This document shows positions 23,682 to 62,608 of a stretch of DNA of 64,000 nucleotides, one piece after another. The position numbers and the translations under genes are program-made. The notes under the pieces were generated by a model. It saw only the letters and a list, made by a program, of their open reading frames with translations, was not told the origin of the DNA and ran no database searches. Every line of letters starts with the position of its first letter. The first letter of the stretch is position 1. Source of the DNA: Octopus vulgaris (taxonomy: Eukaryota); assembly GCA_951406725.2 (NCBI GenBank), contig OX597822.1, positions 84,444,001 to 84,508,000 of the forward strand, in the 5' to 3' direction.

Positions 23682-24114
23682 ATTTACATTTGACGTATAT
23701 TTGTCCTCATCGTGTTTGTTGTTAACACGTTTCAGCTGTTATATTCTCCAGCCTTCATCAGGTGTCTTGGGTAAATTTCGAACCTGGGTTCTCATTCCTA
23801 AGGTATTTTTCAATATTATCATCATCATCCCTGCTTGGAATCAAACTCGGAATCTTGGGGTTAGTAGCTCGCACACTTAACCACTGTGCCATATGCCCAT
23901 GAGCATAGTGGTTAAGAGCGTGGGCTACTAACCCCAAGATTCCAAGTTCGATTCCAAGCAGTGACCTGAATAATATAATAACAACAACAACATTGAAAAA
24001 TAGTAATGAGAACCCAGGTTCGAAATTACCACAAGACACCTGATGAGGGCTGGGGTGTATATCAGACGAAACATGTTAACAAACAAAATGAGGACAAATA
24101 TGTCAAATGTAAAT
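23682..24114. mobile_element. Palindromic (head-to-head) tRNA-headed SINE-like element with a hammerhead-like core in each arm
   Basis: Arms mirror about ~23900. Each arm has an A-box-like TAGTGG/CAGTGG, a B-box-like GTT(C/T)GATTCC, an (AAT/AAC)n linker, then CTGATGA-GGCTG..CAG(C/A)-GAAA (+: 24040-24071; -: 23761-23730). Confidence 0.8.
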
Positions 24115-24778
24115 AATGTGCAAAATTCATCTCTTAAATATAGAACAGAAAAGAAAAAATTGCTCAGAAAGTATTTACTAATTTCTCATGCAAGTCTTCA
24201 ATATTGCACCCAACAATTACTTGGACAAAATATTCCAACTAAAATTCATAATCAGGCTTAGTTTTTTTTTTTTTATTTACTCTTATTAAATGAAGTATTT
24301 TAAAGTGAATTGTTTACATGCATAGAATAATTTCTGGTACTTTAGGACTTTTTAAAATAATCATATTCACAGCCATACTTGATCTGTATTCTGCATTTAT
24401 GGCGTAATGAAATTGAAATGAAGACTTTCCAACTCTACTGTAAACATTGCATTTATTATATTGGCATGATTTTGGGCTTAGAAAAGAGGTTACAGGGTTT
24501 GATTATAAAGTTTTTAAAAAAAGAGTAAGCAGATGGTGGTTTACTGAAATATAGTTATTGTCTTTTGCTAAGAAATTAGTTTACCTCTGAACAAACATCG
24601 AAAATGCTTCTTCAATGCACTTTGCAAAAGTTCTTCCTCCTAAGCATAAAAATTTGATGGAAAGAGTAAAATTGAATATATTTGTCTCACCTTGTTTGAA
24701 TTGCCTTCTCTTTTTTTTTTTTTTTTTTTTTGTGGTTGTTTAATGGTTTTCTAATGTTTCCCATTTTTATTTCAATAG

Positions 24779-24940
24779 GATTTACCAAATGCTATGAATG
24801 CTGCAGAAGTGACTGACAAGTTGCAATTGCATGGCCTGACTAATAGATCCTGGTATATCCAAGCAACGTGTGCAACAAGTGGAGATGGATTGTATGAAGG
24901 ACTTGATTGGTTGTCAAATCAATTGAAAAGTGGGAAATAA
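24779..24940 (+). CDS. ARF1: ARF1-like coding exon 4 (to stop)
   Basis: Polypyrimidine tract plus caatag acceptor. Translates [53 protein letters not shown]. Completes NKQD and CAT motifs; 148+111+125+162=546 nt, i.e. 181 aa plus stop. Confidence 0.97.
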
Positions 24941-26810
24941 GTTCCAAGGAGGAAATGTTTGTATGAATTCCAAAAGTGGCTGTCTGCGGGTTGACTGCTG
25001 CCTGTCAGTATGCAATCACTTTTGCTCATTCCCTCAGTTTCACATTGTCTGTACAGTCCGTGTTCATTTGTTATTCAATTTCAGTGTCAGGGTTTCAGTT
25101 CTTTCTCTCGCTCGCCTGTTGGGAAACTGGCCCTTACACAATGTAAGATAAATTTATAGTTCTTTATGGTCAAAGCTATAGACTATTAATAGGGGTTACT
25201 CAGAATGTTCTTCTCGGCAGCAGCAGTGGTGATGGCACTGTGCCATGATAGTGATGATGGTGACTGTTTCTTTTAAATTACCACTATCACCACTGCTGCA
25301 AATAGGTAGAAAATTAAATAAAAAAAAAATTGAAAAAAAAATTGAAAAAAATTGAAATGCCATCAGCTCCATCAGCTTTTTTTTTTTTTTTGTTTTTTTT
25401 TTTCCGTTCATAACAGAACCTTTTTCTGTTAAAGTTTAATTAATTTCCTTTTTTTTTTTTTCCTGTAAATTTTTGTCTCCTCCTTCAAGTTGCTTGGAAT
25501 TAATGATGTGGACATTCTAGTAATCATAGAGGGTGGAGAATCATTTTTTTTTTCCCAGAGAAATAAAGCAGAACTATTGAAAAAAAAAATATTGAATCAG
25601 CAAAACTTAACAGCTTGGTATTGGTCAGTTGGCCTCTCATGGCATCTTCTTTCTTTCTTTTTTTTTTTTAACTGTTGGCTGTAAACTTTTAAATCTAAAG
25701 TGTGCTTATATGTTTTTTTTTCTCTCAAACATACACCATTTTTTTCTGAACCAAGTTAGACATTCCATGCCCCTTTCCCTATTTCTGACAACTAATGCAT
25801 TCTTCAAAGACTATTTCCACTTTGGTACTAATGAACTCATCACTTATCCCTGGGGTATTTACTGCCGCATTTGCATAATTAGCTGGGGGGTGGGGTGCTT
25901 CTTAAACTTTTGTTCAATTTTTTTTTGTTTGTGATTCTTAGGCATGGCATTAGAATTACATTCCAGGTTAACTTTGCTTCATAAAATATTTTTTTCTTTC
26001 CTTTTTGCAAAAATTGAGCTACCTTTATTTATCTTTATTTAAAAATTGCCATAAGTGGCATCTAAATTTGTTTCTTTATTCCTATTTCCATTGTGCTACG
26101 ACTAATCTCATTGCCTGAATACATAATCTTCAGCTATAGAATGTGAGAAATAAGAGTGATAATTATATAGATATATTCTCTGTATAATTGGCATTATATG
26201 AGGGGGTATCTGGTTGTAGGTATCATCAGAAAATTGCAGGGATAGACTCATCTGTTATTCGGAAATTTAAAAAGAAAAAAAATTGAAAAAATATTTGGAA
26301 ACATTTATTGAGGAGTTCTTGCATATTTATAAGTCAGCTTTAAATTGTATGCAGAATTTTATTTTAGTTGTTGTTTTTATTTTAATTTTATTTTCTCTAA
26401 TGTTAGTTGTGTTCCTCCTCCCATATTTCCAACACTGCATGTTAATACATTTTCTACTGATTCTTAGTTAGCATGAAATTAGTTGCAACCAATAAATAAT
26501 ATATATTATATCCATTGCAATCTTATGTTGACCTTGACAATACCCTTCCCAATCTATTTTTCCTATTTCTGTGATGTGATAACAACCTACCAAGGTGGGC
26601 TTGTTGCTCAACTTCATGCAATAACACCGTTTTTTGTTCCTCTGGAATCACTTAAACGATAAATTTGAGTTGGCTGAAAGTCTGCAAGTGCAGTTATTTT
26701 GAAATGACTGACCACCACTCCTAATAGCCAGTAATTCTTGCATGTCATTTGCATGGATTATTCAAATGTATACTGCATACAGATCTAATAAATATTTGAA
26801 CTCCCCTTTT
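24941..26810 (+). other. Probable ARF 3' UTR with candidate poly(A) signals
   Basis: U-rich stretch without recognisable TEs after the stop. AATAAA at 26491-26496 and at 26787-26792, the latter followed by U-rich sequence. True end uncertain. Confidence 0.5.
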
Positions 26811-28689
26811 CATTGCTAATTTTCTCTTTGAATTTACTTTCTCTCTTGCTTTTCATGACAAGATTTCTAAACCATTCATTAGTTTGTAAAAATACTTCAC
26901 TGTTTCTTTTTTTTTTTTTTTTTTACCTTTTAACAAAATTCTCTTGGTACTTGGTCTGATTACCATTCAATATAATTCCAAATGTTCATATTTAGCTTCA
27001 GAAAAGCCTTATCAATAAGCAGCCAGTTTTAGATTACTTAGCATAGAAAATGGTTAAATGATATAATTAAACAACTGTAGGATATGTCTTCACCATTTAT
27101 CCACTGCAAAAGCACAGCTTAGCTGTAGGTATTGGAAACAATTTTTCTAAATCTTGCTTGGAGCTATTGATGATATTGAACAGATTAAGATCTACTGCAT
27201 GCTGCCATTGTCTTCTTTTAATGTTTTATCTGCTTTACACCACTTTGTCCTCGTTAATTAACAATAATTTAATTTGCTGCCATTGCTGTTTTGTGAAAAA
27301 CTGATATTTTATTTCATTTAAGATAATCAAAAATTGTAAATTATCCTAAAATGGTGGAGATATTTTCATACATAATATTTAAAAAGCACCATTGAAAATT
27401 GGTTTTGCAAATAATTTGCCTAAGCTACTAGGCTTTAAGGTAGCTTGAGAAAAATTAAACTTTGGGAAAGAAAAGATTTGCCTCTTTCATTTGCATGGCA
27501 AGTTCTATAGCTTATTTTAAAATTTGTAAACTTACAAGATTTATTTAGCTTACAGAAATCTGAAATGTTCTATGAAATTTACCAAAATTTGTGGAATGGC
27601 TTTTTGCGTGGCATTGAGATTAATCACCTAATGGTTAGGATACTGTTTTATTCCAAATAACCTAGAAACCAGGAGCTAGACACTCCAAACCTGTAGAATA
27701 AGGCTTTGTATTATATTGACTCAAATGAATTATTCATTCTTGGCCCTTGAGCTGCTAATTGTTACTTTAATCATTTTGGCCATTTCACTCCTAATTAGGA
27801 AAGTATTCACATTGTATAGTTAGTTTTTCTGAGATCATTAAAGAACAGTTTTTCCTTGTGTTATCTGAAGATGATTCATTTTAATAAAAATTCATATCCA
27901 TCATCTTCAGAAAACAGCTTTTCACTTTCCTCACTAAAGAATTCAACCAAATACTGCTCAAAGACCTTTTCATTTCTTTTTATTACTTGACAAACTATTG
28001 CACAATGCTATTTGTGCCGGTGTAACAAATGATTTGTATTCTGTTCAACAACACATTTTGTTGCCAATTGTATGAATACTTCACTTAATTCATTCACTGC
28101 TCTATTTGTAACAAGAATCTTGAAATAATTCTTCAGCTTGTATTAATTATTTCAGCAAAACTGTGATGTTCCTTAATTGTCTATAAATTTTGTGCTTCAG
28201 GAACGAAAATAGCTAAGATAAATTTTGAATATTTAATTTAATTATTTTGAAGTGACTGTAGATTCAGTTTATTAGTTTATCAACTCTATATTATGGGAGA
28301 CCCCACTGTATTTATATTTAGTATGCAGAGTGTTCCCATGAGATATTTTCTCCTCACCTGTATTCTTGATATTCATAATCAGTATCACCCCCCCACACAC
28401 ACACATAGTGTCACTACTGGCCTTGTCAAGTGAGTAGCAGGTTTCACTGAAGTATATCCATACCTTTTACTAGTTGGTTTTGATGACCAAATCCACTCTA
28501 ATCTGCATTGTATAATCCAATTTCAATTCTAAACACTGATATTGGAAGGTTTTGTGTAATTGCTTGGATAAGCTCATTTCTACATTAACTTACCTATGCT
28601 TGCATGGGTCAGGTGAGTATTCTCCACAGCATCCCACCAATTATTGCTTACTTTTCTCAAACTACTTCAGCACCCTGACATCAGCTTTT

Positions 28690-29640
28690 TCACTATTTTT
28701 ACCCATGTCTTCCTATTTCACACTTTCTTTCCATGTAGGATCTGCTGGCTCTTTACTCAGTTCTGATCCCTATGCATTACATGTTCTGATAGTTTTACTC
28801 ATCTCCCTCTTCTATGCTACATCTGATTCCACTTAGTTCATCTGTACCTCATTGTTCATATTCCTACCTGTTACATCCAGCAGGAGCACACTTTATTTTT
28901 TTTTTTTTCAAGCTTTAACACACTCACTGCATCCTGTTCCCATCTCTCTCACTACCATGCAGCATTACAGTTTGTACACAAGCATTGTACACTCTACCTT
29001 TTGTTTGACAAGGAAATCCTCTGTTTGGCAGAGGTAACTCCCTGAACTTTCCTAAGCTGTTCTTTTTCTGGCAATTATATTTTCAGAGCATCCTTTTTCA
29101 CTGCTTTTGTTCACCCTGGTAATAGAAACTCTCGGCTTCTGTATAGGTTCACAAGCCAAACATTGGAAAGCAGAAATAAAATGAGGATGATTATATGTCT
29201 CACTGCTAATTACTCCTGTGCATGTGCCACCAACTACAGAGCTTGTTAGCCTACCTGTGATCCTACTATCAAAGATCACAATCAATGTACAAATATGGAA
29301 TTTCTACCACTATTAAATATCCATTTCCTTGATGGCAGCAGAGTCCTGTCTTGTTGTCTACCTACTAAAACTTTAGTCTTTTGTTTCTGTGTCTGCTCCT
29401 CTAATTCTTCCATAAACTCTGCTGTAAGTACTCAGTCATTAGTATATAGTCCTCTTGAACAGCTGGTCTTAAACTCCTTTGTTATACTTTGGTGGACTAT
29501 AATAGGAAAACGGCTGAGAAGTGAACATTGTATACCTCCCTGCATAATATACATCTTCACTTAACTCCTTTTCACCTCTAGCTTTGATTGCATCTCTGTA
29601 CACAGCTCTCACAAACCACCGAGTTCTTCCAGATTCTCAT
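28690..29640 (-). mobile_element. Highly degenerate RTE LINE RT fragment
   Basis: Minus-strand remnants align with the 57.6-58.3 kb copy (GCSENIIAR, KFRELPL, KGRVYNACVQTVMLHGSE) plus upstream ITKEFKT...VLTAEFMEEL. Confidence 0.65.
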
Positions 29641-32600
29641 TGCTGACAGACGAGCAATTAACTAATTTTGCTTTTCCTCCTGGGAATCCTATTTATTCTG
29701 TTTGACCAATAAGTATTGCATCATTTTGGGATAAATCTTTGTCTGTTGACTTTCTCCAACTGTAAACTATACATTCAGAGTATCAACTAGTTACAGCTCG
29801 TTGTGCAAAGTCATTGAAATGTCTTTAGTTTCATTTTTGAACCCAGAACAGCATTAGTGCCATGAAATAAGGATAATCATCAGTTGCTATTGTTACGTTG
29901 TATATTGAATCTGGATGCTGGACGCTTCCATTGATTAACCAAATGAGCAATTAAATTAATTGCGCAACCCTTGGGTGCCTTTAGCAATGGCGTTTCCACT
30001 TACAAATGTTTGGACCAGGTTTTGCAGTTTGTGGATCTTTTCTCTCTCTCCAATGCTCTGTAAAGGGTCATGGCCATTGCTTTTCCTCCTAACTAAGCAA
30101 TTAAAAATAAAATGTATTAGAGAAATGGCCAAAATATATAGTGCCACTTGATTTGGTTTTCTGACTGCTGTGAGGTTTCAGAATGCAAGACACAATGTCA
30201 CATGCAATTAGGTACCTTTTTGACAGGATTTAAGTTTTGCCTCAACTGCAGATGGACAAAAGGTAATAGTGTGTTGGATATTTTATTTCAATCTTCAGCT
30301 TTTCAGATGTACAACATTGCGACAGAGAAATTTGTGATAAGAACTAGTTTGAGTTTGGCCAGCAAAGTTGTTGCTTCATTAAATTGAGTGGAAGCATGGC
30401 TGTGTGGTTTACAAGTTGAATTTCCAAACTATGTAGGTTCAGGGTTAGTGTTTTCTGTAACCTTGCACAAACCAAGGCTTTGTGATTGGATTTGGTAGAT
30501 AGAAACTGAAAGAAGCCTGTTGTGTGTGTGTGTGTGTGTGATTTAATGTTCACTTTCCAATGTATGGGTGAAACAGAATTTGGGGTGGATTATTCTATGG
30601 CTGGATGCTCTTCCTGTCTACAAGCAAAATAATATTTCCCCATGACTAGACATGTCTTAGGAGGTAATGAAGGACACCACTTCCGTAACAGTAATATTCA
30701 CTTACAAGTTTCATTGTCATGGCAACAGTAACACACTCACACATGTGAGAGGCTATTTTCAGTTTCTGTCTACCAAATCCACCACAAGGCTTTCAGTTGC
30801 CTGGGACTGTAGTAGAAGACACTTGCCCAAGATGCCATGCAGTGGGAGTAATCCTGAAACCATGTGGTTGGGAAGCAAACTTCTTGCCATGCCTACACAT
30901 GCATGTATAAACGTGTGTGTGTTTACATTTCTGCTTTTTTGAAAATTGCTGAGCTATGAATCATCTTGTCAACAAATTATCTGCTTGCTTAGCTACCTCT
31001 GCAGATGCTTAGAATAAGAGGTAAAGGTTAGCAACAGGAAAAGCATCTGACTGTAAAACATTGTCTCGGTTATATATACATATGGCACATGCTGACATAG
31101 GAAAAAGCAAAGCAATTCCACACAATAGTAAAATGTGGATGTAAAACATTGGACATTAAATGGGTGGCTAGAATTAAGGTATAGTTGACGAGGGTCCCTT
31201 TCAATTAACTCTGCTCAGTAATTGAACTGCAGCTGCTAGAACACCACTTTGAGGAATTTAGTTGAATAAATTGACACCAGTACTTGTTCGTTTGTTCTCT
31301 TTTACTGAACTGTTATAGGGGACATAAACAAACCAATACCAGTTATCAGGTGATGGGACATGCACAAAGATCCATCGTTGTCGTGGTCATTTAGCATCCA
31401 TTTTCTCTGCTGGCTTGGGCTGGAAGGTTTGATGTGACCTGGTGAACTGCAAGGCCACATTGAGCTCCCAATCTTGGATTTGGCATAGTTTCTCTGACTG
31501 GATAATTATTTAAGCTTATGTTGATTCCTCTGTGATTTTGTTTTGCATTTACAATAAAATATATACAATAATAAAAAATATATATATATATATATATACA
31601 CATATAGGTGCAGGAGTGGCTGTCTGGTAAGTAGCTTGCTTACCAACCACATGGTTCCAGGTTCAGTCTCACTACGTGGCACTTTGCGCAAGTGTCTTAT
31701 ACTATAGCCTCGGGCTGACCAGAGCCTTGTGAGTGGATTTGGTAGATGGAAACTGGAGGAAGCCCATCGTATGTGTGTATCTGTGTTTGTCCTCTCACCA
31801 TCACTTGAAAACTGATGTTGGTATTCTTTTTTTTATGTTTCAGTCATTTGACCACTGCCTTTAGTCGAACAATTCGACCTCAGGACTATTTTTTTGTTAG
31901 GCAAGAGACCGATAGAGTAAATACTAGGCTAACTGCTATGTTACGGGGACATAAACACACCAGCAGATGTCAAGTGATGGTGGGGGTACAGACACACACA
32001 TATATACGACCGGCTTCTTTCAGTTTCCGTCTACCAAACCTGCTCACAAGGCTTTGGTCGGCCCGAAGCTATAGCAGAAGACACTCACTCAAGTTGCCAT
32101 GCAGTGGGACTGAACTCGGAACCATGTGGTTGGTAAGCAAGCTACATACCACACAGCCACTCCTTGTGCCTATGTTTACGTCCCAGTAACTTAGTGGTTC
32201 AGTAAAAGAGACCGATAGCATAAGTACTAGGCTTACAAATAAGGTCGATTTGTTCGACTAAAGGCAGTGTTCCAGCAAGGCTGCAGTCAAATGACTAAAA
32301 CAAAAGAATAAGTGCTGTTTCTACGTCGGGGATTTTCACCTATTGCTGGGGTGGGGTAACACCTGTGATAGTCAAGGGGATTACTGTATGTATGCAGACA
32401 TGCACAGACACATTTACAGACCCACAAGGAACTTCTATAGAAACGTACCTATACATCCACAAATATCTAAACATATGCAAACTTGTGCATCATGTGCTTA
32501 TACTTTCTTTGCAAATGTGGGGGTGAGTTGAAATGTAAGAATGTGTTGCACACTACCCCCCCCCCCCTTTTCATAATATCCCTGACAGAAATCTTAAAAG

Positions 32601-33823
32601 TTATTTACCATCACTGCGAATAAGATACAGTGTAGGCCAAAAGTCATGCACAGAATAAGTTCAAAGACACTCCAGAATTGTCAAGGACATGCTTCAATCT
32701 TTCTAAAATTCAATAAGATAGATCAAATAATGAATACACACATGCTTGCGCATGACAATCAAAATAAGATGTCATATGTGATTTTTGGCCCAAATTAGGT
32801 TGTTTGCCAATAATATTAATGAGAAAGATTGATCAATAGATCAGCAGTTTGATAGATATAGGTAATATTAGGTTCAAATTTTGGTACAAACCTAGTGATT
32901 TCGCTGGAGGAGGTAAGTTGGTTACATTGACCCCAGTGTCTAACTGGTACTTATTTTATCGTTCCTGAATGGGTGTAAGGCAAAGTCAATCCCTGGCAAC
33001 ATTTTTCCTGGTGTGGTAATGATTCTGCCAGCTTGCCGCTTTTGATACAAGCAATATTCTTTATTAATGTCAGGGCGGCAAGCTGGCAGTATTCTTAGTG
33101 GTATTTCGTTTGCCCTTATGTCCTGAGTTCAAATTCTGCCATGGTCGACTTTGCCTTTCATTCTTTCAGGGTCAATTAAACAAGTACCAGTTATGCCCTG
33201 GGGTCAATGTAATTGACTTAATCCCTTTGTCCTTGTTTGAACCCCTGTGGGCAATAAGGAAATAAATATTCTTTATTAATGTCACTAAAGGTAAAGTGAT
33301 TCTGACAGGAAAATTGGGGAGCTGTGGGAGGCCAAAGGAAACATACAACAAACAAGTCACAGATTACAACAACAATGACAGGAAGGAGAGAGAGAGTGGC
33401 TTGAGTTAGCTTATTTGAAAGCCTAGAGATCAGCTGCCACAAACTTATACACAATAGGCTTCCACACAGTTTCTATCTACCAAATTCACTTACAAGGCAT
33501 TGGTCAGTCCAGTACTATAGTAGATGTCGCCCAAGGTGCCATGCAGTGGGACTGAACCTGAAATAACCTGGATGCAAAGCAGCTTGTTAGTCAAACAGCC
33601 ATATCTGCATTTGCTCTGAGCTGTGCAGCAGGTTCCTGCCAGTTTGGTAAGGACATTATGAACCCTTTAGCATTGAAATCAATTGTATCAGAACCAAACA
33701 TTCTACTTTTTTTTTATGTTCAAACTTGCCAGATCTAGTCTCTTGCACCTATCCAACAATGTCATTTTCAAAATAAATAATCTTGAAGCTAAAAGATAAT
33801 GCCCAATTAATTCAAGTCAATAT

Positions 33824-34060
33824 GGGCATATGGTGTAGTGGTTAAGAGCATAGGCTACTAACCCCAAGATTCCAAGCAGTGACCTGAATAATAATGATAA
33901 TGATATAAAAACAACATAAAAAAATACCTTAGGAATGAGAACCCAGGTTCGAAATTTCCCCAAGACACCTGATGAAGGCTGGAGGGTATATCAGCCAAAA
34001 CATGTTAACAACAAACAAGATGAGGACAAATATCTGTCAAATGTAAATAAGGTAAATAAT
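33824..34060 (+). mobile_element. Single-arm copy of the 23.7-24.1 kb family
   Basis: gggcatatggtgtagtggttaagagc...caagacacCTGATGAaggctggagggtatatcagccAAAAcatgtt; the core GAAA is mutated to AAAA. Confidence 0.85.
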
Positions 34061-34999
34061 TCAAGACAATCTTAATAAATAAACTTTACATTTGATACAA
34101 TAATCTGAATGCTGAAGGTTTAAATCGTGGAAGTGATAGTCAATATGAATGAAATACTGACCAGAAGGAAAGTTTAGGGTTAATATTTTTATTGCTCCTA
34201 GCATGAAACAGAGTAGATGTGTGGTAAGAAGCTTGCTTCCCAAGCACATGGTTCCGGATTCACTCCTACTGCATGGCACCTTGTCTTCTACTGTAGCCCA
34301 GGGTTGACCAAAACCTTGTGAGTGGATTTGGTAGACGGAACTTGAAAGAAGCCTGTTATGTGTTTGTCCCCCAACTCGACATATTTTGGTGTATATATGT
34401 TCCTGTAACTTAGTTGTTTGACAAAAGAGACCAATAGAATAAATGCCAGGCTTTAAAAAATATGCAAGTACTGGGATCAACATTGAACTAAGACTTCAAG
34501 GCAGTGCCCAAGCATGACCACAGTCTACTGACTGAAACAAGTAAAAGGAGAAGATACATGTGGGATATTGGTCATTGATTCCTCTTTTTGATTGTTTCAG
34601 CAAGGATGGAAGGCAAGTTATTAGACCTCTGTGGTGGTCATGGTCTTACTCATTTCACCAAGAACTTGTAATCCAATCAAAAAGAAGTTTGGTTTAATTA
34701 ATATTACTGTGAAATTATTGCTTACTGGTTTCTTAACTTCATCACCTAAAAAAAAGATTTGGAACATTGAGCCTCGTCTATCACTTATATGGGATAACCT
34801 AATATGCTCAAATGTGAACCATGTTATGGATTGATCGATGATAACATGGGTTGGCAATTAGTTGAAGATTCTACTTGCACTGCAGAAATTCACCCCAGCA
34901 ACCACCCACAATACTCTGCTAGCTACCCAGAATGCACTGACTGTGTTCACTTAACTATGCTGCAAAGCAGCATATTTTTCATACAGATTTACTTGTATT

Positions 35000-35180: not shown

Positions 35181-36772
35181 GGTGTGTGGAGATGATATAC
35201 CTCACATGCCGGTGTATAAGACAAGCTTTTTTTTACTTTTAGTTGTAATAAAAAATTGCTATGCAACTATTTATGGATGCTACACAAAGTGTATGATGAG
35301 AAATATTAAATTTGTTTTTTCCACAAAATAATCTAGTAAAGTAAGGCTGCTGCATCTTATATGCTATATTTGTCAGTGTTTGGTGTCCAATACAATGTTT
35401 GGTTATTTCTTTTTGTCTTTTTATTAACCCCACTCCCCATGGTAAACAAGGATAGATGTACTGCTATTATAGTTTTGCTTGCTCAATTCTATTAGAAGCT
35501 ACACTAATCAGAAAGTTTACATTTTGTTTAGTTTGTGCTTTCAAATTTCTTTTTCATCATCATCTAACATCCACTTTCCATGCTGGCATGGGTTGTACAG
35601 TTTGACAGATGGTAAGGCTGGAGGGCTGCACCAGGTTCCAGTCTGTTTTGGCGTGGTTTCTACAGCTGGATACCTTTTCTAACACCAACCACTTAAGAGA
35701 GTGTACTGGGTACTTTTTTACGTGGTACCTCTGCCACATTCTTTACCTTTTTTTGCATATCAAGTGCATTGCCCTGCTGTAGCCAACACTATCATCATAA
35801 GCTGGTTTAGCAAATGAAAGACAAGATTGGTTGTATGATAATTGAAACACAATAAAAGTACTTTCATTCACATTTATATAGCAACACAATTTCTTTCAGA
35901 TGATATTGGCTTACAGTAATTACAAAAGAGAAATACAGGTTCCTTACGTTGGCATGAGATGACCATAGTTGATTGTCTTCAACTTGTTTTTCTTATTTTA
36001 TCAACCGGTTTCATCTCTGGAGAATTTCAACATAAAGGGACATAACAAAATACCAAAAGCTATTTTGTTCAATTTTACTCATCGTCACTCTCCAGTTGTC
36101 CATTGCTTCACGTTTAGAATTTCCTGTTGCTTTCAGTCATTGGACTGTAGCCATGCTGGAACACCAACTTGAAGGATTTAATGAAACAAATCAACTACTA
36201 ATCCTATTTTTTTAGTGTAGAGCTTATTTGGTTGGTCTGTTGTTGCACTACTATGTTATGGGGATGTAAACAAACCAACACACTCGTGATCAAGTGGTAG
36301 GAAAGACACCCACACATGATGGGCTTCCACGCAGGTTCTGTCCATTATATTCACTCAGACATTGGTCAGTCCAGTGCTAGAGTAGAAGATATTTGCCCAA
36401 TGTGCTATGCAGAGGGATTGAACCTGAAACCACATAGTTAAAAGTGTGCTTCTTAACTACATGGCCATTCCTTTCCAGTTATTTAACAGAATGGTAATTG
36501 TAACAAACATTGAATGAAGACTTCTTTGTAACCAGATAACTTGAGGTTTAAACCAAAAGTAATGCAGCTTTTGTTTTATTAAAAGTCATAAGACATTCAA
36601 AGTGCACGGGTTGGTAGAGCAACTCTTTCTTTATACCACTGGTTCCGAACCAGGATCCAAATAACCCTTGGGGATTTGTATAAGATTTTGTTGTTAAAGT
36701 TTATCTGCAATAAACTGGTTATAAAATTACTATTTTTAAATCTCACACATGAGAGATATTCAGCAACAGTAC

Positions 36773-37156
36773 TTTGGAGCAAAGATTGTTTGCCAACATA
36801 ACATGCCAGTCCTGGTTTAGGACGAATGTTGCTGTAATTTAGCCCCAGGAGACATCGTCTCCAGCTAGCTATACAACACTATCTGTATCCTTATATTTTT
36901 GAACAAAGGAATCTAGCACCCCCACTCAGCTCAAAGCAATTTCTGGGTTATTCTATGCTGATGAAGGGAAATAACCTGGAAATCATGATACACAGATATT
37001 GTTTTGAGGGTGCTAGATTCCCTTGTTCGAAAATATAAGGATGCAGATCATGTTGTATAGCCAGCTGGAGATGATGTTTCCTAGGGCTAAATTACAGCAA
37101 CATTCATCCTAAACCAGGACTGCCATGTAATGTTCGCAAACAATCTTTACACCAAA
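36773..37156. mobile_element. Foldback element (~170-bp inverted arms) enclosing a hammerhead; probably Penelope-derived
   Basis: 36773-~36947 is the imperfect reverse complement of 36991-37156 (e.g. cagtcctggtttagga / tcctaaaccaggactg; aatctagcaccc / gggtgctagatt). Confidence 0.75.
36953..36995 (+). ncRNA. Minimal type I hammerhead ribozyme motif (slightly degenerate)
   Basis: CUAUG-CUGAUGA-AGGG AAAUAA CCUG-GAAA-UCAUGA-UA|CACAG. Core intact, palindromic helix III, AUA triplet, one mismatch each in helix I and helix II. Confidence 0.65.
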
Positions 37157-37339
37157 CTGGTTTTACTTCTGCAATACACAAAATATTTAATTATAAAAAT
37201 ATAATGGGATTTTTTTTAAACATTGAATGGCTATGGGAGTCCATCCAAGTGAAGAGAAATGAAAGAGGTCCATAGGTAACAAATGGTAGAGAATCACTCC
37301 TTTATCCAAACCTACAACTTCGTCTCCATCACATTTGTT

Positions 37340-37699: not shown

Positions 37700-38772
37700 T
37701 TGTCATTGGCTCTTGACTTCTTAGACCTTGGAGAAGAGATTTACCATTCCACTTAAAAACGTGTTTAAATGCTTTAAAAAAATGGAAGTCAGTGGGTGAA
37801 TGATCAGGAGGATGTGGTAAAGTCTTGTATCCCAAGACTGAATTTCTGCAGCGTCATTCTTGCAACATGTGGCTTTGCATTATCACGGAGCAGAATTGAG
37901 CCATGCCGATTCGCCAATGCAGGAGTCTTTTTGGAAGTGAACATGCATTTCAGTGAGTTAATTGCAGTAAACCTCTGCTGGAATGCTCTGATTGGATTCC
38001 AGAAAGTTACAATGGACAACACCAATTGCAGACAATCACCATAATCTTTTGTTGATGCAACTTTGCCTTTGGGAAATGTTTGGAGGGCTCATCACAATCA
38101 AGCCATTGCCCTGATCATTTACGGTTATCATAAAGGATCCGCTTTTCATCACAAGTGACTATTTGGTCAAGAAAAGGATCATTAATGTTTTGCAGAAAGA
38201 GCATCAAGCACACTTCAAAATGCCGAACCTTTTGATTTTCATTGAACTCATGTGGTACCCATTTATCAAGCTTTTTAACCTTACCAGTCTTCTACAGATT
38301 GCGTGGGACCATTGCTGACACCAAGTGCCTGAGAAATTTCTTTGACACTTTGATATGGGTTTTGTTCAACAATTGTTCATTGTCAAGACTGCATGACCGT
38401 CTTCTACCTTCTTCATCTTCAAGGCTCTCATCACCACAATGGAATTTCTGAAACTACCTTCATACTATGCAATTACTTGTGGGCCTCTCTCCTCATGCTC
38501 TGTTGATATCGGCAGCAGTTTGGGAGGCATTGTGCCCAAGCTTGAACTCATGCAAGAAAAGTAAGCGAAGGTCCTTTTTTTGTCATGTTCATAATTAAGG
38601 GCGCCTATGCTTCAAGAATGTTTTTTGTCTGAAATAAGTAGAAAATTATAAAAGAGCATACATCAATTACTAAGTATGTCAAAATTCACCTAAAATATAA
38701 CTCAAATACTATGATAAAATTGCATTTCAAAACACAACACTTAGCGTGGCTATTATTTTCGGAACAACCTAA
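37700..38772 (-). mobile_element. Mariner transposon relic (Hsmar1/SETMAR-like transposase)
   Basis: Terminus TA|TTAGGTTGTTCCGAAAATAAT at 38774-38750. Minus-strand remnants LLFLHEFKLGHNASQTAADINRA, IVTCDEKRILYDNR, LLRDNAKPHVA, TLPHPP..SPTDFHFFK. Confidence 0.88.
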
Positions 38773-47130: not shown

Positions 47131-47154
47131 CATATATATATATATATATATATA

Positions 47155-53689: not shown

Positions 53690-54175
53690 ACATCAATCGT
53701 TTGGCATTTAATCTCCTTTGAATCAGTTTCCTTCTGAAGCTACACACTCTATCCAGCCTCATTTCCATTGATCGAAGCATTCTTGAAACTTCTTTTCTGG
53801 GACAGTGAACAGCTGCCTCGTCGCATTCTCTTGGATTTCTTCAACATCTTGAAGTCTTGTTGGGGGGTCTTCCACTGCAAAGACTGAGTCTGAGTTTCAG
53901 GGTCATAGCTATATACCCACGATTTGTCACCTGTTATGACCGTTCTCAGAAAACTTTTGTCTTTCTCAACACAATCAAGGAGATTCTTCACAGCTGAAAT
54001 CTGATCTTCTTTTTGAGACGCTACACACTTTACTTCCAAGCATTGCTATAAACAATTGTAGTGAGCAAGAACGTTAGAGTTAAAGGTCAGTCTGTGCCAA
54101 ATGGTTCCATTCACCCTGTGTACTTTAGCTCCATTGCCATAGCAACAGTTCCAATACTTTTCGATCAAACTTCAT
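53690..54175 (-). mobile_element. Internally deleted mariner element
   Basis: ORF 53749..54039 FLRTVITGDKSWVYSYDPETQTQSLQWKTP, fused out of frame to a C-terminal F+DVEEIQEN...ECFDQWK segment. Confidence 0.8.
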
Positions 54176-54635: not shown

Positions 54636-54698
54636 TTAATGAGCCATTTATGCCTTTCTTCTTGACACTGACTATTTCTCTGTCCTCTCTTCTTGTAG

Positions 54699-56378: not shown

Positions 56379-56582
56379 ATTGTCACAAAAAGGAACGACA
56401 CTTGCAGTGCAGTTTAAATATTGTAAGAAGGTGGGATGGTCATGGCTGGATTACTTTTGATTTCAAATCTGCCCAGAGTCAACTAGTTGAAAAACAATTT
56501 TCAGACTAAAATTAAAAAAAGGAAATTTTTTTAATGGAAAGATAATCAGTTTGTTGTAATATTTGTTGATATTGTTTTCTAG

Positions 56583-56701
56583 TTCAAGGTTCAATGGTGT
56601 TGTGTCTTCCACAAGGTAGTATTCCCACAAATAAAGAAATCTCTCATCTAATCCAGACATTGAAACCCATCATTAGACAGCTCGTTGATCACACTAATAT
56701 G
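56583..56701 (+). CDS. PSME3: PSME3 coding exon 5
   Basis: Acceptor ttttctag, donor gtaagc, 119 nt. (V)QGSMVLCLPQGSIPTNKEISHLIQTLKPIIRQLVDHTNM aligns to human GTKVFVMPNGMLKSNQQLVDIIEKVKPEIRLLIEKCNT. Confidence 0.9.
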
Positions 56702-57059
56702 GTAAGCTTGCTTTCTCTCTTATTCTTTATTCATTAGCTTCATATTGTTATCTACTTCTTTAAAACAGATTGGGGTCTTAGTCTCATTTTAACCCTTCGC
56801 CTGTCTAAGGTATTTTTGTAAGTTCTTCATGTCCAATGCTTTTTTTCAGACTTCTAGTTAACCTTTGTTTCTTATGTTTTGAGTAATATAAATTTGTGGT
56901 AAGTAGCTTGCTAACCAACCACATGGTTCCGGGTTCAGTCCCACTGCGTGGCATGTTGGGCAAGTGTCTTCTACTATAGCCTCGGGCCGACCAAAGCTTT
57001 GTGAGTGGATTTGGTAGACGGAAACTGAAAGAAGCCGGTCGTATATATATATATATATA

Positions 57060-58292
57060 TCATCATCATCATCGTTTAACGTCCGCTTTCCATGCTAGCA
57101 TGGGTTGGACGGTTCAACTGGGGTCTGGTAAGCCCGAAGGCTGCACCAGGCCAGTCAGATCTGGCAGTGTTTCTACAGCTGGATGCCCTTCCTAACGCCA
57201 ACCACTCCGAGAGTGTAGTGGGTGATTTTATGTGCCACCGACACAGGTGCCAGACGAGGCTGGCAGACGGTCACGCTCGAATGGTGTTTTTTATGTGCCA
57301 CCGACACAGGTGCCAGACGGCCACGCTCGGATGGTGTTTTTTATGTGCCACCGACACAGGTGCCAGACGAGGCTGGCGAACGGCTACGATCGGATGGTGT
57401 TTGTTACGTGCCCACAGCACGGGGCCAGTCGATGTGGTACTGGCTACAGTCCTGTTCGGATGGTTTTCTTATGTGCCACCGGCACTGGTACCACAAGGAT
57501 ACAAATTCCATTGATGTTCATCTATTTGATTTGATTCGATTTGACTTGACTTTCACTTGCCTCAACAGGTCTTCACAAGTATCACAAGCAGGAAGGTATG
57601 CACAGGTGGACTGACTACGTCCCAGGTAGTGGCCATGGGTTATGGCTTCACTAGTCTTGCCGGGTCTTCTCACGCACAGCATACTTCCATAGGTCTCGGT
57701 CTCTAGTCATTTCCATGGTGAGACCTAACGTTCGAAGGTTGTGCTTCACCACCTCGTCCCAGGTTTTCCTGGGTCTACCTCTTCCACGGGTTCCCTCAAC
57801 TGCTAGGGATTGGCACTTTCTCACACACCTATCTTCATCCATTCTTGCCACATGACCATACCAGCGCAATCGTCTCTCTTGCACACAACAACTGATGCTT
57901 CTTAGGTCCAACATTTCTCTCAAGGAACTAACGCTCTGTCGAGTAAGTACACTGACATTACACATCCATCGGAGCATACTGGCTTCATTCCTCATGAGCT
58001 TACGCATGTCCTCAGCAGTCACGGCCCATGTTTCACTGCCATGTAGCATGGCAGTTCGTACACATGCATCATACAGTCTGCCCTTTACTCTGAGCGAGAG
58101 GCCTTTTGTCACCAGCAGAGGTAAGAGCTCCCTAAACTTTGCCCAGGCTATTCTTATTCTAGCAGTTACACTCTCAGCGCACCCACCCCCACTACTGACT
58201 TGGTCACCTAGATAACGGAAGCTATCAACTACTTCTAATTTTTCCCCTTGCAAAGTGACGGAAGTTGTTTTCTGCAGATGCTCCCGAGCATC

Positions 58293-58297
<5 letters not shown>
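57060..58297 (-). mobile_element. 5'-truncated RTE-clade LINE (RT C-terminus, 3' UTR, (GAT)n tail)
   Basis: ORF 57651..58298: VVDSFRYLG...RIRIAWAKFRELLPLL...RRLRWYGHVARM...RGRGRPRKTW. Frame open, so relatively young. Confidence 0.92.
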
Positions 58298-58331
<34 letters not shown>

Positions 58332-58871
58332 GTGTGTGTGTGTCTGTTTGTTCCCCTAGCATTGCTTGACAACCGATGCTGGTGTGTTTACATCGCCGTC
58401 ACTTAGCGGTTCGGCAAAAGAGACCGATAGAATAAGTACTAGGCTTACAAAGAATAAGTCCTGGGGTCGATGCTCCAGCATGGCCGCAGTCAAATGACTG
58501 AAACAAGTAAAAGAGAGAGAGTATAAAGTTTTCCTTTCATAAGTCCCAAGTTCCTCTTGTGGTTTAAAAGAATTGGGAATATGTATTATATATGATGCAT
58601 GGACATCACAAGAAATACACAGGACAGGCAAAGGGGTTAAAACAGTCGCCAGATCTCCCTCATATTACACAAACATCTTTAAATAAATACTGGGGTCAAT
58701 CTATTCAATTAAAAATTCTTCAATGTGGTGCCCCAGCATGACCACAGTCTAATGACTAAAACAAGTGAAAAAACATAAGATATTTGTAAGATTTTGTTTA
58801 TATTTTGTGTATCTGGTCTGAATGTTCAGTTTGAGTTGCCCTTATTTAAATCTATTCTTTTTTCTTTCCAG

Positions 58872-58940
58872 TTAAAAATGTGGATTTCTTTTCTCATTCC
58901 TAAAATTGAAGATGGTAACAACTTTGGTGTGTCCATTCAG
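58872..58940 (+). CDS. PSME3: PSME3 coding exon 6 (activation loop)
   Basis: Acceptor tttccag, donor gtacag, 69 nt. LKMWISFLIPKIEDGNNFGVSIQ is the PA28 activation loop signature. Confidence 0.97.
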
Positions 58941-59039
58941 GTACAGTCACTCACTCTAATGTATGTGTATGGAGAGAGAGCGAGAGAGACACACACAAAA
59001 AAAATGTATACACTTCTTGAGATGTATGATGGTCTCCAG

Positions 59040-59088
<49 letters not shown>

Positions 59089-59089
<1 letters not shown>

Positions 59090-59255
59090 TTTATTTAAAG
59101 CAGCAGAAAATTCAACAAAATCTGTTACTCTGAGTTTCTCGTTGCCGTTCATCAGACAGTCTGAATTTTCTGCTGCTTTAAATAAAGCATATTACTCTAC
59201 CACTGGTATTTGAGTACTCTTTTTTTCCACCTTGTTTCACATTTATGTTTACTCC

Positions 59256-59257
<2 letters not shown>
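59089..59257 (-). mobile_element. Small foldback element with perfect 26-bp inverted repeat around a hammerhead, inserted in (TA)n
   Basis: ctttatttaaagcagcagaaaattca (59089-59114) is the exact reverse complement of 59162-59187; (TA)n on both flanks. Confidence 0.75.
59122..59159 (-). ncRNA. Minimal type I hammerhead ribozyme motif
   Basis: Minus strand reads CUGU-CUGAUGA-ACG GCAA CGA-GAAA-CUC A GAG-UA|ACAG. Full core, GUA triplet, 4-bp helix I, near-palindromic helix III; the helix II closing pair is an A-A mismatch. Confidence 0.75.
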
Positions 59258-59309
<52 letters not shown>

Positions 59310-59791
59310 CGTACATACATATAATGCTTTGGCCATGGCTAAGAATTGTTTTGACTCTTATTTCTAGCAATGCTGGTGCTGACTTGCATCTTAGTCACTT
59401 TAGTGATGATTGTACTTGTGCCTTTTGGTTTTAAATTGCAACTAGCCACTGTAATTATGTATATGTATACACACACACACACACACACACATGTAAGGAG
59501 AGAAAGAGATAATGTAGATGTTTCTATGTATAAAAACAAACAAAAAGTCCATTAACTGAGTGAGGAACTTAATTGGTGAAACACAGCTAAATATTTATAA
59601 AAATGTGTCAGTTTTGCTTTTTAAACTGTTGTGAAAATATCTAAAAGATTGTTGTATATAAACAGATTAGGGATTAAGTTCTAAAGGAACTTCTTTTAGT
59701 GGTGGATATGTGGAACGGTGTAAGGTCAATTCATCGGTGGCTATTTGATCCCAGTCACTTTGTCAAGATTACTGGAAAAATGGAAGAACGA

Positions 59792-60543
59792 ATCATCATC
59801 ATCATCGTTTAACGGCTGCTTTCCATGCTTGCATGGGTTGTACGATTGATTGAGGGCTGGCGAACCAGATGGCTGCACCAGGCTTCAATCTTGATCTGGC
59901 AGAGTTTCTACAGCTGAGTGCCCTTCCTAACGCCAACCACTTTGAGAGTGTAGTGGGTGCTTTTATGTGCCAGTCAGGCAGTACTGGCAACGACCTCGCT
60001 CGAATCTTTTACACATGCCACCGGCACAGGTGCCAGTAAGGCAATGCTGGTAACGCTCGAATGGTGTCTTTTACATGCCACTGGCACGGAGGCCAGATAG
60101 CCGCTCTGGCAAATGATTACACTCGGATGGTGCTCTTAATACCCTTCTAGCATGGGGCTCAATTGCCAGTAAGGTGTCGCTGGTAACGATCACGCTCGCT
60201 CGAATGGTGCCTTTTAAGTGTCACTGGCATGGAAGCTGGTTAACCACTCTGTCAATGATCACACTCGTATGGTGCTCTTTGCACCCTGCTAGCATGGACG
60301 CCAGTCATCGAATTTGATTTTGATTTTGATTTCACTTGCCTCAACAGGTCTTCGCAAGCAGAGTTTTAGTGTCCAAAGAAGGAAAGGTATGCATAAGTGG
60401 GCTGGTTATGCCACTGGCATAGGCCACGAGATTATGGTCTCATTTGGCTTGCTGGGTCTTCTCATGCACGGCATATTTCCAAAAGTCTCGGTCACTAGTC
60501 ATTTCCTTGGTGAGGCCTAGAGTTCGAAGGTCGTGCTTCACCA
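59792..60543 (-). mobile_element. 5'-truncated RTE-clade LINE 3' end nested in the MULE
   Basis: Same 3' UTR and (GAT)n tail as 57060-57650, with a few terminal codons (VKHDLRTLGLT). Confidence 0.85.
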
Positions 60544-60601
60544 AAAAAAAAAAAAAAAGCCATTTATTTTAGGGTTTGCTTTATTAGATATCTATTTCTT
60601 C

Positions 60602-61958
60602 TTAAAATTTAAGATTGTGTGCAATTGCTTTTAGAAAAATAATTTTCTGGCTTGGATCATGTTTTTCCATGACATTTTTTATATGCAAGTTCATATCTCT
60701 GTATTTTTTCTTTTCGTTTGGTTCTTCTCCTTGCATAAACTTCTGCAATTTGGTACTGGCAAACCTTTCCTCACATTTAATTACAACAGTTAGTTTCCAA
60801 ATATTTGGATGACTCATATTCACTGTGTTTTTCAGCACACTGTTGTAGGCTTCTAAACTATTTGTAGTACGAGCAATCCCCATCATACATCGATCCCAAA
60901 CATTCCATATAGATAATGGAAATGGAGGTTCAAGGCATTGCTTCCTCTGTCCACTTGCTCTAGGTGGTCCTATAGAATTATTTTCAAAATAGGATACAAC
61001 TGACTGTGGAATATCATCATCATCTACAAGTTGTTCATATCCATCTACAACATCATCAACTGGCAGGAAGGCAAGGGCAACAAAACACTGTATTTTAAGA
61101 CTAAAACTGTCATCTTCATGATATCTGCATTTTAGTCCTTCTTGCACAACATGCTTGTACACATTTTGTCCTAAATGAAACAAGCAGCATGCCAAATTTG
61201 ACCCAGGAAACAATTCCAGAAATCCATTATGGGCTGCTTTTTCAAAATCCATAATTATCAGGTCCCTCATCTGCAGTAATATATTTATTTTGGCAAAAAG
61301 TCTACTATATGTGTCTTGACTTTTGTCAGAGACCAATGCAAACAATCGTGTGGCATTAAAATGATCAATTTGAATGTGAAGTATATATAACTGAAAAATT
61401 ATACTAGAGCAGCACTTAAATGTTCCATCTTCCACCCAGTTCTTGTACTGTTTTAACTGTCAAAGTGCTTCGTCACTTGCAAATATTAGTATTCGGTTTG
61501 AATCTTCCATCCCGCTGTCATACTTTAAAAACGTTTTATCATTGTCAATGTAGGAGTATTCACTTGGAATGGAAAAGCCCAGCTTGCCTCCGTCTAATAT
61601 TCCTATTAAGCTGTGCAAACGGAGGTATTTGCAGCAATGTACAGTCGTTTAAATTCTGAACTTCACTAGCAATAACTGAGCGAGGAGCATCATGAGATGA
61701 AATAGACCTTACTTTAATATTTGAAATCTATTATCCTTGCATTTACCTCTCCAGCAGTTAAAGCGTGATTATGGATCCCAATCTTAAGCTCTTTATTATT
61801 TTCATCTGTTTGAAATTTCGCTTAGCACACATAATTTTCGCACCTCCAGTGTATCTTCAATCCATCTGCATTCTGCTTATTTTTTGTGTATATTAATTTT
61901 CTTGATCGACCACTTTGATTTTGCCTTTCTCTAAAGTTATGATCTTGCAGGTAGTCAT
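60602..61958 (-). pseudogene. FLYWCH-MULE transposase, disrupted in the N-terminal half
   Basis: ORF 60602..61435 has EDGTFK, IIMDFEKA, CLFH and RTTNSLEAYN (DDE plus CxxH). Upstream broken frames give YTKNKQNADGLKIHWRCENYVC*...GIHNH (FLYWCH finger) with stops and frameshifts. Confidence 0.88.
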
Positions 61959-62404
61959 GGTGATGGGTTGGCATATTGAATAAATTTAATTCAATTTGCT
62001 TGAAAATCTTTGTAAACTGTTCAGAGCAGACACTTAAGAGAGAGGTTAAAAAAGGAAAAATAATATCTAAAACTGTCTAATGACAATTTTAATTCTAAAG
62101 TGATTGTTCTAAACTTGCCCTTGAAAATCACATTTAAAAGTATTTTAGGACAAATTGGCCAGTGATGAATTGATCTGGGGATGAATTGATTGGGAACAAA
62201 TTAACCGATGATGAAATAACCAGGGACGAATTTTCCTAGCACTATGTGGAACTAAGAAGGGATAATTTTAAGGTTTTTAAATATGAACGAATCTTTATAA
62301 ATTTGTGAAATTTCAAAATTTTTCAGGTGAAAATTTAGCTTTTTCTTTGAAAGAGAGATCTATAAAATTTGCATATGAATAAATATTATAATTTGAAATA
62401 ATAT

Positions 62405-62608
62405 ACATTATTTACATTTGACGGATATTTGTCCTCATCTTCATCAGGTGTCTTGGGGAAATTTCGAACCTAGGTTTTCATTCCTAAGGTATTTTTCAAT
62501 GTTGTTATCATTATTATTCAGAGGTTACTGCCTGGAATCGAACTTGGAATCTTGGGGTTAGTAGCCTGTGCTCTTAACCACTACGCCATATGCCCACGGG
62601 CATATGGC
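62405..62608 (-). mobile_element. Copy of the 23.7-24.1 kb family with deleted ribozyme centre and retained palindromic centre
   Basis: Same sequence on the minus strand; the helix II/GAAA segment is deleted at cctcatcttcatcagg; ends in gccatatgccc-ac-gggcatatggc (62585-62608). Confidence 0.85.

What the first reader, a model, noticed from the sequence alone, without database searches (positions are those of the whole stretch)
23682..62608. Three unrelated foldback element families in one window each carry a minimal type I hammerhead: candidate cephalopod retrozyme-like system
Seen: CUGAUGA-stem-GAAA cores occur inside inverted-repeat elements at 23.7-24.1, 33.8/62.4, 36.8-37.2 and 59.1 kb. 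The three families share no obvious sequence except the core. Established: Penelope-like elements and non-autonomous retrozymes carry minimal type I hammerheads with palindromic helix III that act as dimers. Inference: these are short non-coding Penelope parasites, or inverted Penelope termini, that spread as hairpin units and may yield self-cleaved or circular RNAs. A Penelope-like RT remnant at 17746-17982 is a plausible relative of the mobilising partner. I cannot tell whether these families are already catalogued.
Basis: partly seen in the sequence, partly recalled or inferred. Interest (0 to 1): 0.8.

Follow-up and report, generated by a model that had tools for sequence, protein, structure and literature searches.

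The report
Penelope insertion scars, one SINE-like parasite
The hairpin repeats are separate insertions that likely come from Penelope-type retrotransposons, which are known to land as back-to-back copies carrying a small hammerhead ribozyme; most of this is ordinary, but one abundant family has a fixed tRNA-promoter-like head and is likely a short parasite copied by the Penelope enzyme.

Summary
The motifs are there, but they are not three foldback retrozyme families. The 59.1 kb element (D) has the same helix I, helix III and cut site as a published Hydra-clade Penelope hammerhead; in public contigs that motif sits beside Hydra-type ORFs and often head-to-head. The 36.9 kb element (C) fits a type I hammerhead, and related copies repair its one helix I mismatch. 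C and D match the known Penelope insertion unit: inverted truncated copy, tail on one side, target duplication or (TA)n. Family A (23.7, 33.9, 62.5 kb) has no cut site in any window copy; two Octopus records carry three more bases exactly there, compatible with a minimal hammerhead. A starts at a fixed point with A/B boxes 45 nt apart, has 10-14 bp target duplications, and occurs as monomer or head-to-head: likely a Penelope-mobilised SINE. No tandem arrays, so the retrozyme/circular RNA reading fails. The 17746 remnant is the N-terminus of a Hydra-type ORF, not the RT domain. No genome was held; partner element and cleavage are untested.

The parts
23685..23901 (-). Family A left arm: A box and B box 45 nt apart, A-rich linker, second B-box-like word, hammerhead-type core at 23761 without cut site, 3' end without tail
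23902..24149 (+). Family A right arm (starts about 10 nt into the head), core at 24040 without cut site, about 30-nt tail present on this side only
23673..24161 (.). 12-bp target duplication (23673-23684 / 24150-24161, 1 mismatch) bounding the whole head-to-head unit
   Evidence: 3 of 400 random position pairs reach 12
33822..34056 (+). Family A monomer (A2): A box, first B box deleted, core at 33969 with GAAA changed to AAAA, no cut site
33808..34070 (.). 14-bp target duplication (33808-33821 / 34057-34070, 1 mismatch)
   Evidence: 1 of 400 random
62403..62597 (-). Family A arm (A3): A and B boxes 45 nt apart; helix II and GAAA deleted after CTGATGAA at 62447
62598..62609 (+). 12-nt inverted stub of the family A head; weak 10-bp target duplication 62393 / 62610
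   Evidence: 15 of 400 random
36953..36995 (+). Element C type I hammerhead: helix I 5 bp (mismatch at 36955 in this copy, G in 97-98% of laid depth), core 36958, 3-bp helix II with one extra base before GAAA, palindromic 8-nt helix III, predicted cut 36990^36991
36996..37153 (+). Element C right arm: 3' sequence after the hammerhead, no tail
36724..36947 (-). Element C left arm: inverted copy truncated close to the predicted cut site, with about 50-nt tail (36724-36772)
36712..37165 (.). 12-bp target duplication of C (36712-36723 / 37154-37165, 1 mismatch); C lies inside another repeat (contigs join 36714 to 37164)
   Evidence: 3 of 400 random
59122..59159 (-). Element D hammerhead of Hydra-clade type: helix I 4 bp, helix II decayed to 2 bp, helix III 4 bp with 1-nt loop, GUA site
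59089..59257 (.). Element D unit: tail-less inverted copy (59089-59162, -) joined to a truncated copy with about 70-nt tail (59163-59257, +), between (TA)n runs 59040-59088 and 59258-59309
17746..17988 (+). Broken N-terminal 80 codons of a Hydra-type Penelope ORF (before the RT domain); one stop and a frameshift
   Evidence: tblastn E 2e-9 to residues 8-96 of the L054 ORF, hmmsearch E 1.2e-9, only hit in the window

Best explanation
These are five independent insertions, likely made by Penelope-like (PLE) reverse transcriptase/GIY-YIG machinery, whose hairpin shape is likely an insertion scar (an inverted 5'-truncated copy beside a tail-bearing copy) rather than the form in which they spread. 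D is the 3' end of a Hydra-clade PLE or of a short derivative (hammerhead identity shown; parent ORF not seen). C is likely the 3' end of another PLE family (hammerhead fit, one-sided tail and target duplication shown; clade and parent not shown). Family A is likely a non-autonomous unit transcribed from its own A/B-box (Pol III-type) head and copied by a PLE enzyme through a PLE-derived 3' end, i.e. a Penelope-dependent SINE (fixed start, boxes, target duplications, one-sided tail and high abundance shown; Pol III transcription and the partner inferred). The hammerheads are inherited from the pLTR, where they are proposed to cut tandem precursors as dimers (PMC4209133). At these loci they are predicted to be idle: all window copies of A lack the cut site, D has a decayed helix II, and whole-unit folds bury the A and C cores. 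Because a cut in A would part the promoter from the 3' end, loss of the site would favour spread of monomers (inference).
For: D: helix I ctgt/acag, helix III actc-N-gagt and site 'a' equal Hydra-2_aMil in File S2 of PMC8557442. That motif occurs in 123 public loci; 4 of 123 hold a 714-724 aa ORF with the RWK-type N-terminus, 2 ending 183-184 nt before the motif and 2 starting after it. 39 of 88 matches with enough upstream DNA have an inverted partner within 800 nt, 36 of them within 60 nt; of 15 exact head-to-head pairs 11 have the tail word on one arm, 0 on both. Helix II, not fixed by my pattern, is 86.5% paired in 26 distinct motifs, with 12 two-sided changes at one pair. Hydra elements prefer (TA)n and D sits in (TA)n. 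Craig 2021 describes inverted truncated copy plus one-sided tail as PLE structure; Cervera 2014 reports dual min-HHRs 100-700 bp apart on opposite strands. C: 36955 reads G in 97-98% of depth in 4 of 4 runs, completing helix I. Target duplications of 12, 14, 12 and 10 bp. A: 3 of 4 arms start within 1-2 nt of the same point, 2 nt before the tRNA +1 implied by the A box; A-B spacing 45 nt in 2 of 4 arms, the only such pairs in the window; no T4 run in any arm. 2 of 2 Octopus records that span the core have one extra codon there (P0008, P0009); one of the 5 closest back-translations of P0009 gives a min-HHR like the Lottia motifs in the Cervera supplement. A Hydra-type ORF fragment is in the window.
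Against: No genome was held, so no element was traced to a full-length octopus PLE. A profile of 39 relative tails did not find D's tail (no hit at E<=10); the resemblance is by eye only. The model hit on D (E 2.6e-8) is partly circular, as the search pattern came from D, and the 123 loci are dominated by two near-identical motifs (101 of 138 matches). Pfam names no domain in the four ORFs; their Hydra label rests on motifs read by eye against File S4. For A: ARAGORN and Rfam find no tRNA, even relaxed; laid contigs list no insertion at 30% or more in the core (12 of 17 rows shown), so the longer form may be a minority or may have been clipped; only 2 of 384 back-translations of P0009 and 0 of 432 of P0008 give an intact motif. 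Nothing links the 17746 fragment to A, C or D by sequence. C has no relative outside the laid runs (empty).
Confidence: 0.72

Rival explanations
1. Family A is simply the 3' UTR/pLTR of an autonomous PLE that truncates at a preferred site; the A/B boxes are incidental or belong to the parent. All three families would then be plain PLE debris.
For: Same insertion anatomy as C and D; no tRNA homology detected; PLEs make up 6.83% of O. vulgaris in 190 families (supplement row).
Against: 3 of 4 arms plus the stub begin at the same point next to the implied tRNA +1, with exact A-B spacing, whereas the arms of C and D break at different points; summed depth over the A core is 5-20 times that over C.
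Confidence: 0.3
2. One reading: retrozyme-like non-coding elements that spread as hairpin units and give self-cleaved or circular RNAs.
For: Two loci fit a type I hammerhead; animal retrozymes are proposed to derive from PLE pLTRs (bioRxiv 10.64898/2026.07.22.740005, abstract, introduction and passages); C's tail-bearing arm begins within about 2 nt of the predicted cut.
Against: No tandem direct copies in the window or in 123 relative loci (0 with two same-strand matches; many contigs short); at most one core per strand; cores buried or weak in whole-unit folds (helix I pair probability 0-0.12); D's tail-bearing arm starts 11 nt after the cut.
Confidence: 0.08
3. Family A is an ordinary LINE-mobilised tRNA SINE and the hammerhead-like words are coincidence; head-to-head pairs are chance neighbours.
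For: A/B boxes and 10-14 bp target duplications are SINE traits; the bare motif is not above chance; no window copy fits a hammerhead.
Against: One target duplication bounds both arms at 23.7 kb, the tail is on one side only, there is no poly(A) or simple-repeat 3' end, contigs in 4 of 4 runs join the head (33826) to the 3' part on the opposite strand, and the extra codon falls exactly where the cut site is missing.
Confidence: 0.12
4. MITE/foldback DNA transposons that happen to hold the motif.
For: Long inverted arms at three loci; a MULE transposase remnant lies at 60605-61459.
Against: Target duplications vary (10-14 bp or (TA)n), a tail lies outside the inverted part on one side, family A also inserts as a monomer, and D's motif is a published PLE motif.
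Confidence: 0.04

Closest known systems
[quoted passage not shown] 2021, PMC8557442; read: passages, sections 11 and 15, supplement parts 1, 2, 52 and searches)
   Same: D has helix I, core, helix III and site letter of Hydra-2_aMil; (TA)n target; inverted truncated copy plus one-sided tail. The 17746 fragment matches the Hydra N-terminus. One Octopus family (Hydra-1_Obim) is listed.
   Different: D's hammerhead differs from that listed for Hydra-1_oBim, so it is another family; window words from A, C and D are absent from that supplement. No ORF is attached.
Metazoan minimal PLE hammerheads (Cervera and de la Pena 2014, PMC4209133; read: parts 1-2 of 4 of the text, supplement passages; one supplement file not searchable)
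   Same: Family A has CUGAUGA plus one unpaired base, G-C opening of a 5-6 bp helix II and a 5-nt helix I half; opposite-strand pairs 100-700 bp apart are described there.
   Different: Window copies lack three bases that hold the NUH site; a promoter-like head is not described in what I read. C and D keep a 4-bp palindromic helix III, so they are not the helix-III-less minimal type.
Schistosome SM-alpha/Sj-alpha SINE-like repeats (as summarised in review PMC6765202, passages)
   Same: Pol III promoter followed by a hammerhead in a short non-coding retroelement; cleavage separates promoter from unit.
   Different: Those are found in tandem and need tandems to propagate; family A is monomeric or head-to-head with PLE-type tails, and its motif is of the minimal PLE type and broken in the window.
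Animal non-LTR retrozymes (PMC7229834, passages; bioRxiv 10.64898/2026.07.22.740005, first part and passages)
   Same: Short, non-coding, type I hammerhead, proposed PLE origin.
   Different: Defined as tandem direct repeats with a hammerhead in each unit, expressed as circles; none of this is met here.
Octopus tRNA-derived SINEs (OR1 and the two other families of Ohshima and Okada 1994; seen only as citation in PMC4824008)
   Same: Host group, promoter-like head, high copy number.
   Different: Could not compare sequences; a Penelope-type 3' end is not mentioned in the passages seen.

Membership tests
Non-LTR retrozyme | Tandem direct repeats of 150-450 bp with a hammerhead in each unit | tested here: not met
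   0 of 29 TRF rows cover an element; self-BLAST shows only inverted or distant copies
Non-LTR retrozyme | Intact type I hammerhead | tested here: inconclusive
   fits at C and D, 0 of 4 arms of A; no Rfam hit
Non-LTR retrozyme | Expressed as unit-length linear and circular RNA | not testable with these tools
   only contigs were offered
Hydra-clade PLE (element D) | Hydra-type hammerhead near the 3' end | tested here: met
   helix I, III and site equal Hydra-2_aMil; motif flanks Hydra-type ORFs in 4 loci
Hydra-clade PLE (element D) | Insertion into (TA)n; inverted truncated copy with tail on one side | tested here: met
Hydra-clade PLE (element D) | Tail homologous to Hydra tails | tested here: inconclusive
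   similar by eye but no nhmmer hit at E<=10
Hydra-clade PLE (element D) | Own RT plus GIY-YIG ORF with RWK and DKT motifs | not testable with these tools
   copy is truncated; no genome
PLE insertion unit (element C) | Hammerhead, inverted truncated copy, one-sided tail, one target duplication | tested here: met
PLE insertion unit (element C) | Continuity with a PLE ORF | not testable with these tools
   no genome; empty
Minimal PLE hammerhead (family A) | CUGANGAH, G10.1-C11.1, long helix II | tested here: met
   23761 arm folds helix II
Minimal PLE hammerhead (family A) | GAAAN-palindrome-NUH followed by helix I | tested here: not met
   absent in 3 of 3 window arms that span it; extra codon in 2 of 2 Octopus records is compatible with it but third-codon bases are unknown
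tRNA-derived SINE (family A) | Internal A and B boxes at tRNA spacing, fixed 5' start | tested here: met
   both boxes 45 nt apart in 2 of 4 arms, one box lost in the other 2; 3 of 4 arms share the start
tRNA-derived SINE (family A) | Detectable homology to a tRNA | tested here: not met
   ARAGORN down to 40% threshold and Rfam at E<=10 negative
tRNA-derived SINE (family A) | Dispersed, abundant, non-coding, with target duplications | tested here: met
   3 loci in 64 kb; summed depth about 5e6 against 56-75 for single-copy contigs (not a copy number)
tRNA-derived SINE (family A) | 3' end shared with an autonomous partner; Pol III transcription | not testable with these tools
   no genome, no RNA reads
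MITE / foldback DNA transposon | Terminal inverted repeats at both ends and fixed-length target duplication | tested here: not met
   one-sided tails, 10-14 bp or (TA)n targets, monomer at 33.8 kb

The most novel reading that the evidence does not exclude
Family A is a very high-copy octopus SINE that is mobilised by a Penelope-like element instead of a LINE: a Pol III head fused to a pLTR-derived 3' end with a minimal hammerhead, inserting with Penelope's inverted-copy-and-tail signature, and whose successful lineage lost the ribozyme cut site because cutting would separate promoter from 3' end.
Probability: 0.45. Interest if true: 0.72.

Novelty: new variant of a known kind. Interest (0 to 1): 0.45.

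Why it matters
C and D only extend known Penelope biology to further octopus families. Family A matters if it is a Penelope-dependent SINE: SINEs are generally held to borrow LINE enzymes (own knowledge), and five library searches combining SINE, Penelope and tRNA/Pol III terms gave no such report (the library lacks most subscription papers, Repbase and Dfam). A 235-nt unit would define the minimal sequence a PLE enzyme needs, and subfamilies with and without the cut site would be a natural test of the open question whether PLE hammerheads are needed for, or merely ride on, retrotransposition (posed in PMC8557442).

Tried and rejected
No genome for the window, so no genome-wide consensus. Rfam: no hammerhead or tRNA family; ARAGORN negative. 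Exact scans for a family-A word found nothing in metagenome or prokaryote contigs; four motif scans of viral contigs were empty. Tail-only profile did not find D's tail. The model built from D-like motifs (26 of 27 distinct motifs; one 42-nt variant left out) hits D only, not A or C. Pfam gave nothing for the 17746 peptide or the four long ORFs. Naiad 'HHR_core' origin for A was considered; window words are absent from the Naiad consensi (exact words only, line breaks can hide a match). Type III hammerhead topology for A was checked by eye and fails (no upstream hairpin with NUH). Sequencing runs: no RNA holder listed; only contigs, so no ends, strand or circles. Lunse et al. (PMC5785218) is not held. 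The O. vulgaris repeat library of PMC13282606 is on Zenodo and could not be seen; it may already hold these families. Earlier scan notes held nothing on this genome or these sequences.
Full report
Setting. No genome is held for the window. A non-coding stretch of family A, read as peptide, matches only Octopus sinensis and O. bimaculoides records, which supports an octopus host. I call the elements A (23.7, 33.9, 62.5 kb), C (36.9 kb) and D (59.1 kb).

Observation. The inverted repeats are real and the families share only 8-14 nt around CTGATGA. The bare CTGATGA..GAAA motif is not above chance (4 seen, mean 2.29, 38 of 200 shuffles reach 4). A full descriptor fits C and D only (2 hits; 6 of 200 shuffles reach 2). 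Rfam shows no hammerhead among 77 matches. In A, 3 of 3 arms that span the site have no NUH plus helix I, the 33.9 kb copy also lost G of GAAA, and the 62.4 kb copy lost helix II and GAAA.

Element D. File S2 of Craig et al. 2021 lists for Hydra-2_aMil the same helix I, core, helix III (loop base apart) and site letter. 4 of 123 loci hold a 714-724 aa ORF with the RWK-type N-terminus; the motif lies 183-184 nt after the stop in two and upstream of the start in two, i.e. in pLTR position. Pfam names none of them; the Hydra label is by eye against File S4. 39 of 88 matches have an inverted partner, 36 within 60 nt; 11 of 15 exact head-to-head pairs carry the tail word on one arm and none on both. 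Helix II, free in my pattern, is 86.5% paired with 12 two-sided changes at one pair (26 of the 27 motifs); helices I and III are invariant by construction. D has the same build: tail-less inverted copy with the ribozyme, truncated copy with a tail, both inside (TA)n, the Hydra target. Against: a profile of 39 tails missed D's tail, and D's helix II is down to 2 bp.

Element C. The unit 36724-37153 is bounded by a 12-bp duplication (3 of 400 random pairs) and lies in another repeat whose empty form appears in contigs of 4 of 4 runs (joint 36714-37164). The left arm carries about 50 nt that the right arm lacks. The one helix I mismatch (36955) reads G in 97-98% of depth in all four runs, which completes the helix (40 of 163 rows shown, none inside the core). 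The tail-bearing arm starts within about 2 nt of the predicted cut, which would fit copying of a cleaved RNA, but D's starts 11 nt away, so this is one case only. No parent ORF was found.

Family A. Three of four arms start within 1-2 nt of one point, the fourth 10 nt in at the inversion joint, and the 62.6 kb stub repeats the same start. An A box and a B box lie 45 nt apart in two arms, the only such pairs in the window; the others lost one box. No tRNA is detected, so tRNA ancestry is inferred from the boxes alone. Units are bounded by duplications of 12, 14 and 10 bp (3, 1 and 15 of 400 random), as head-to-head pair with a tail on one side, monomer, or unit plus stub. Summed depth over the core is about 5 million against 56-75 for single-copy contigs, in all four coded organisms alike in proportion (not a copy number). 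P0009 reads PKRCVNN and P0008 LKSCINN where window copies read PKHVNN or LKRVNN: one more codon exactly at the missing site. One of the five closest back-translations of P0009 gives a minimal hammerhead like the Lottia motifs in the Cervera 2014 supplement; third-codon bases cannot be read from protein, P0008 is not intact in any back-translation, and laid contigs list no such insertion at 30% or more although joints cluster at 34003. So a longer, probably intact form exists in the genus; its share is unknown.

Remnant at 17746. It aligns to residues 8-96 of the L054 ORF (tblastn E 2e-9; profile E 1.2e-9) and is the only such hit in the window; 6 of 7 phmmer hits show the same N-terminus, one is unrelated. 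It shows that Hydra-type PLEs were active here; it is not the RT domain and is not tied to A, C or D.

Mechanism. Shown: anatomy, duplications, motif identity. From the literature: PLE insertions often carry an inverted 5'-truncated copy and a one-sided tail; pLTR hammerheads are proposed to cut tandem precursors as dimers and cleave poorly in vitro. Inferred: the foldbacks arise at integration; A is transcribed from its head and copied by a PLE enzyme; loss of the cut site helps monomers, as for the schistosome Pol III-hammerhead repeats whose single copies cannot propagate after cleavage (review passage). Head-to-head units hold at most one core per strand and cannot release a unit-length circle; whole-unit folds bury the A and C cores and give helix I of D 0.05-0.12.

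Comparison and novelty. Not retrozymes (no tandem arrays). C and D are new members of a known kind. A works like a SINE with a Penelope 3' end; five searches found no paper on such a thing, and the O. vulgaris annotation paper does not mention hammerheads or ribozymes in its main text, but its library, Repbase and Dfam were out of reach. Two earlier scan notes from other genomes (unchecked) report a tRNA-like unit with Penelope-type insertions and a one-off SINE-Penelope scar; unlike the latter, A recurs with the same junction at three loci and in two named species.

Verdict. Observation partly confirmed, interpretation partly supported. Interest 0.45, carried by family A.

Noticed in passing
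P0009, P0011, P0013 (O. sinensis LOC115224785) and P0010 (O. bimaculoides); family A frame window 33935-34072: A family-A arm is annotated as the first 17-36 codons of two unrelated Octopus gene models (a cysteine-rich membrane protein and a WD40 protein); cluster members P0012 and P0014 lack it. Either exonisation of the element or annotation error.
   Followed up: partly
window 60605-61459 (-): 285-codon open MULE transposase remnant, PF10551 E 4.2e-9.
   Followed up: partly
window 57654-58355 (-), 53752-54045 (-), 37807-38088 (-): Open stretches that look by eye like a LINE C-terminus and two mariner-type transposase pieces (labels recalled; no significant Pfam hit).
   Followed up: partly
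window 1177-1387 and 31612-32164: Further local foldbacks; the second is an inverted pair of another abundant repeat. No hammerhead descriptor hit in either.
   Followed up: no
window 36600-36720 and 37165-37260: Element C is nested in another high-copy repeat; contigs show the empty site.
   Followed up: partly
window 20848-20862: Best, non-significant hit of the Hydra tail profile (E 2.5); shares a 10-nt word with D's tail, no hammerhead upstream seen.
   Followed up: partly
L121-L123 (CBDDTI01 contigs in the prokaryote genome collection): A bacterial genome bin holds contigs with Hydra-type Penelope hammerheads and RT-like frames: likely animal host DNA in the bin.
   Followed up: no
window 23933-23975 type region, second GGTTCGAA word at about 24017: Family A has a second B-box-like word directly before the hammerhead-type core in 4 of 4 arms; unexplained.
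   Followed up: no
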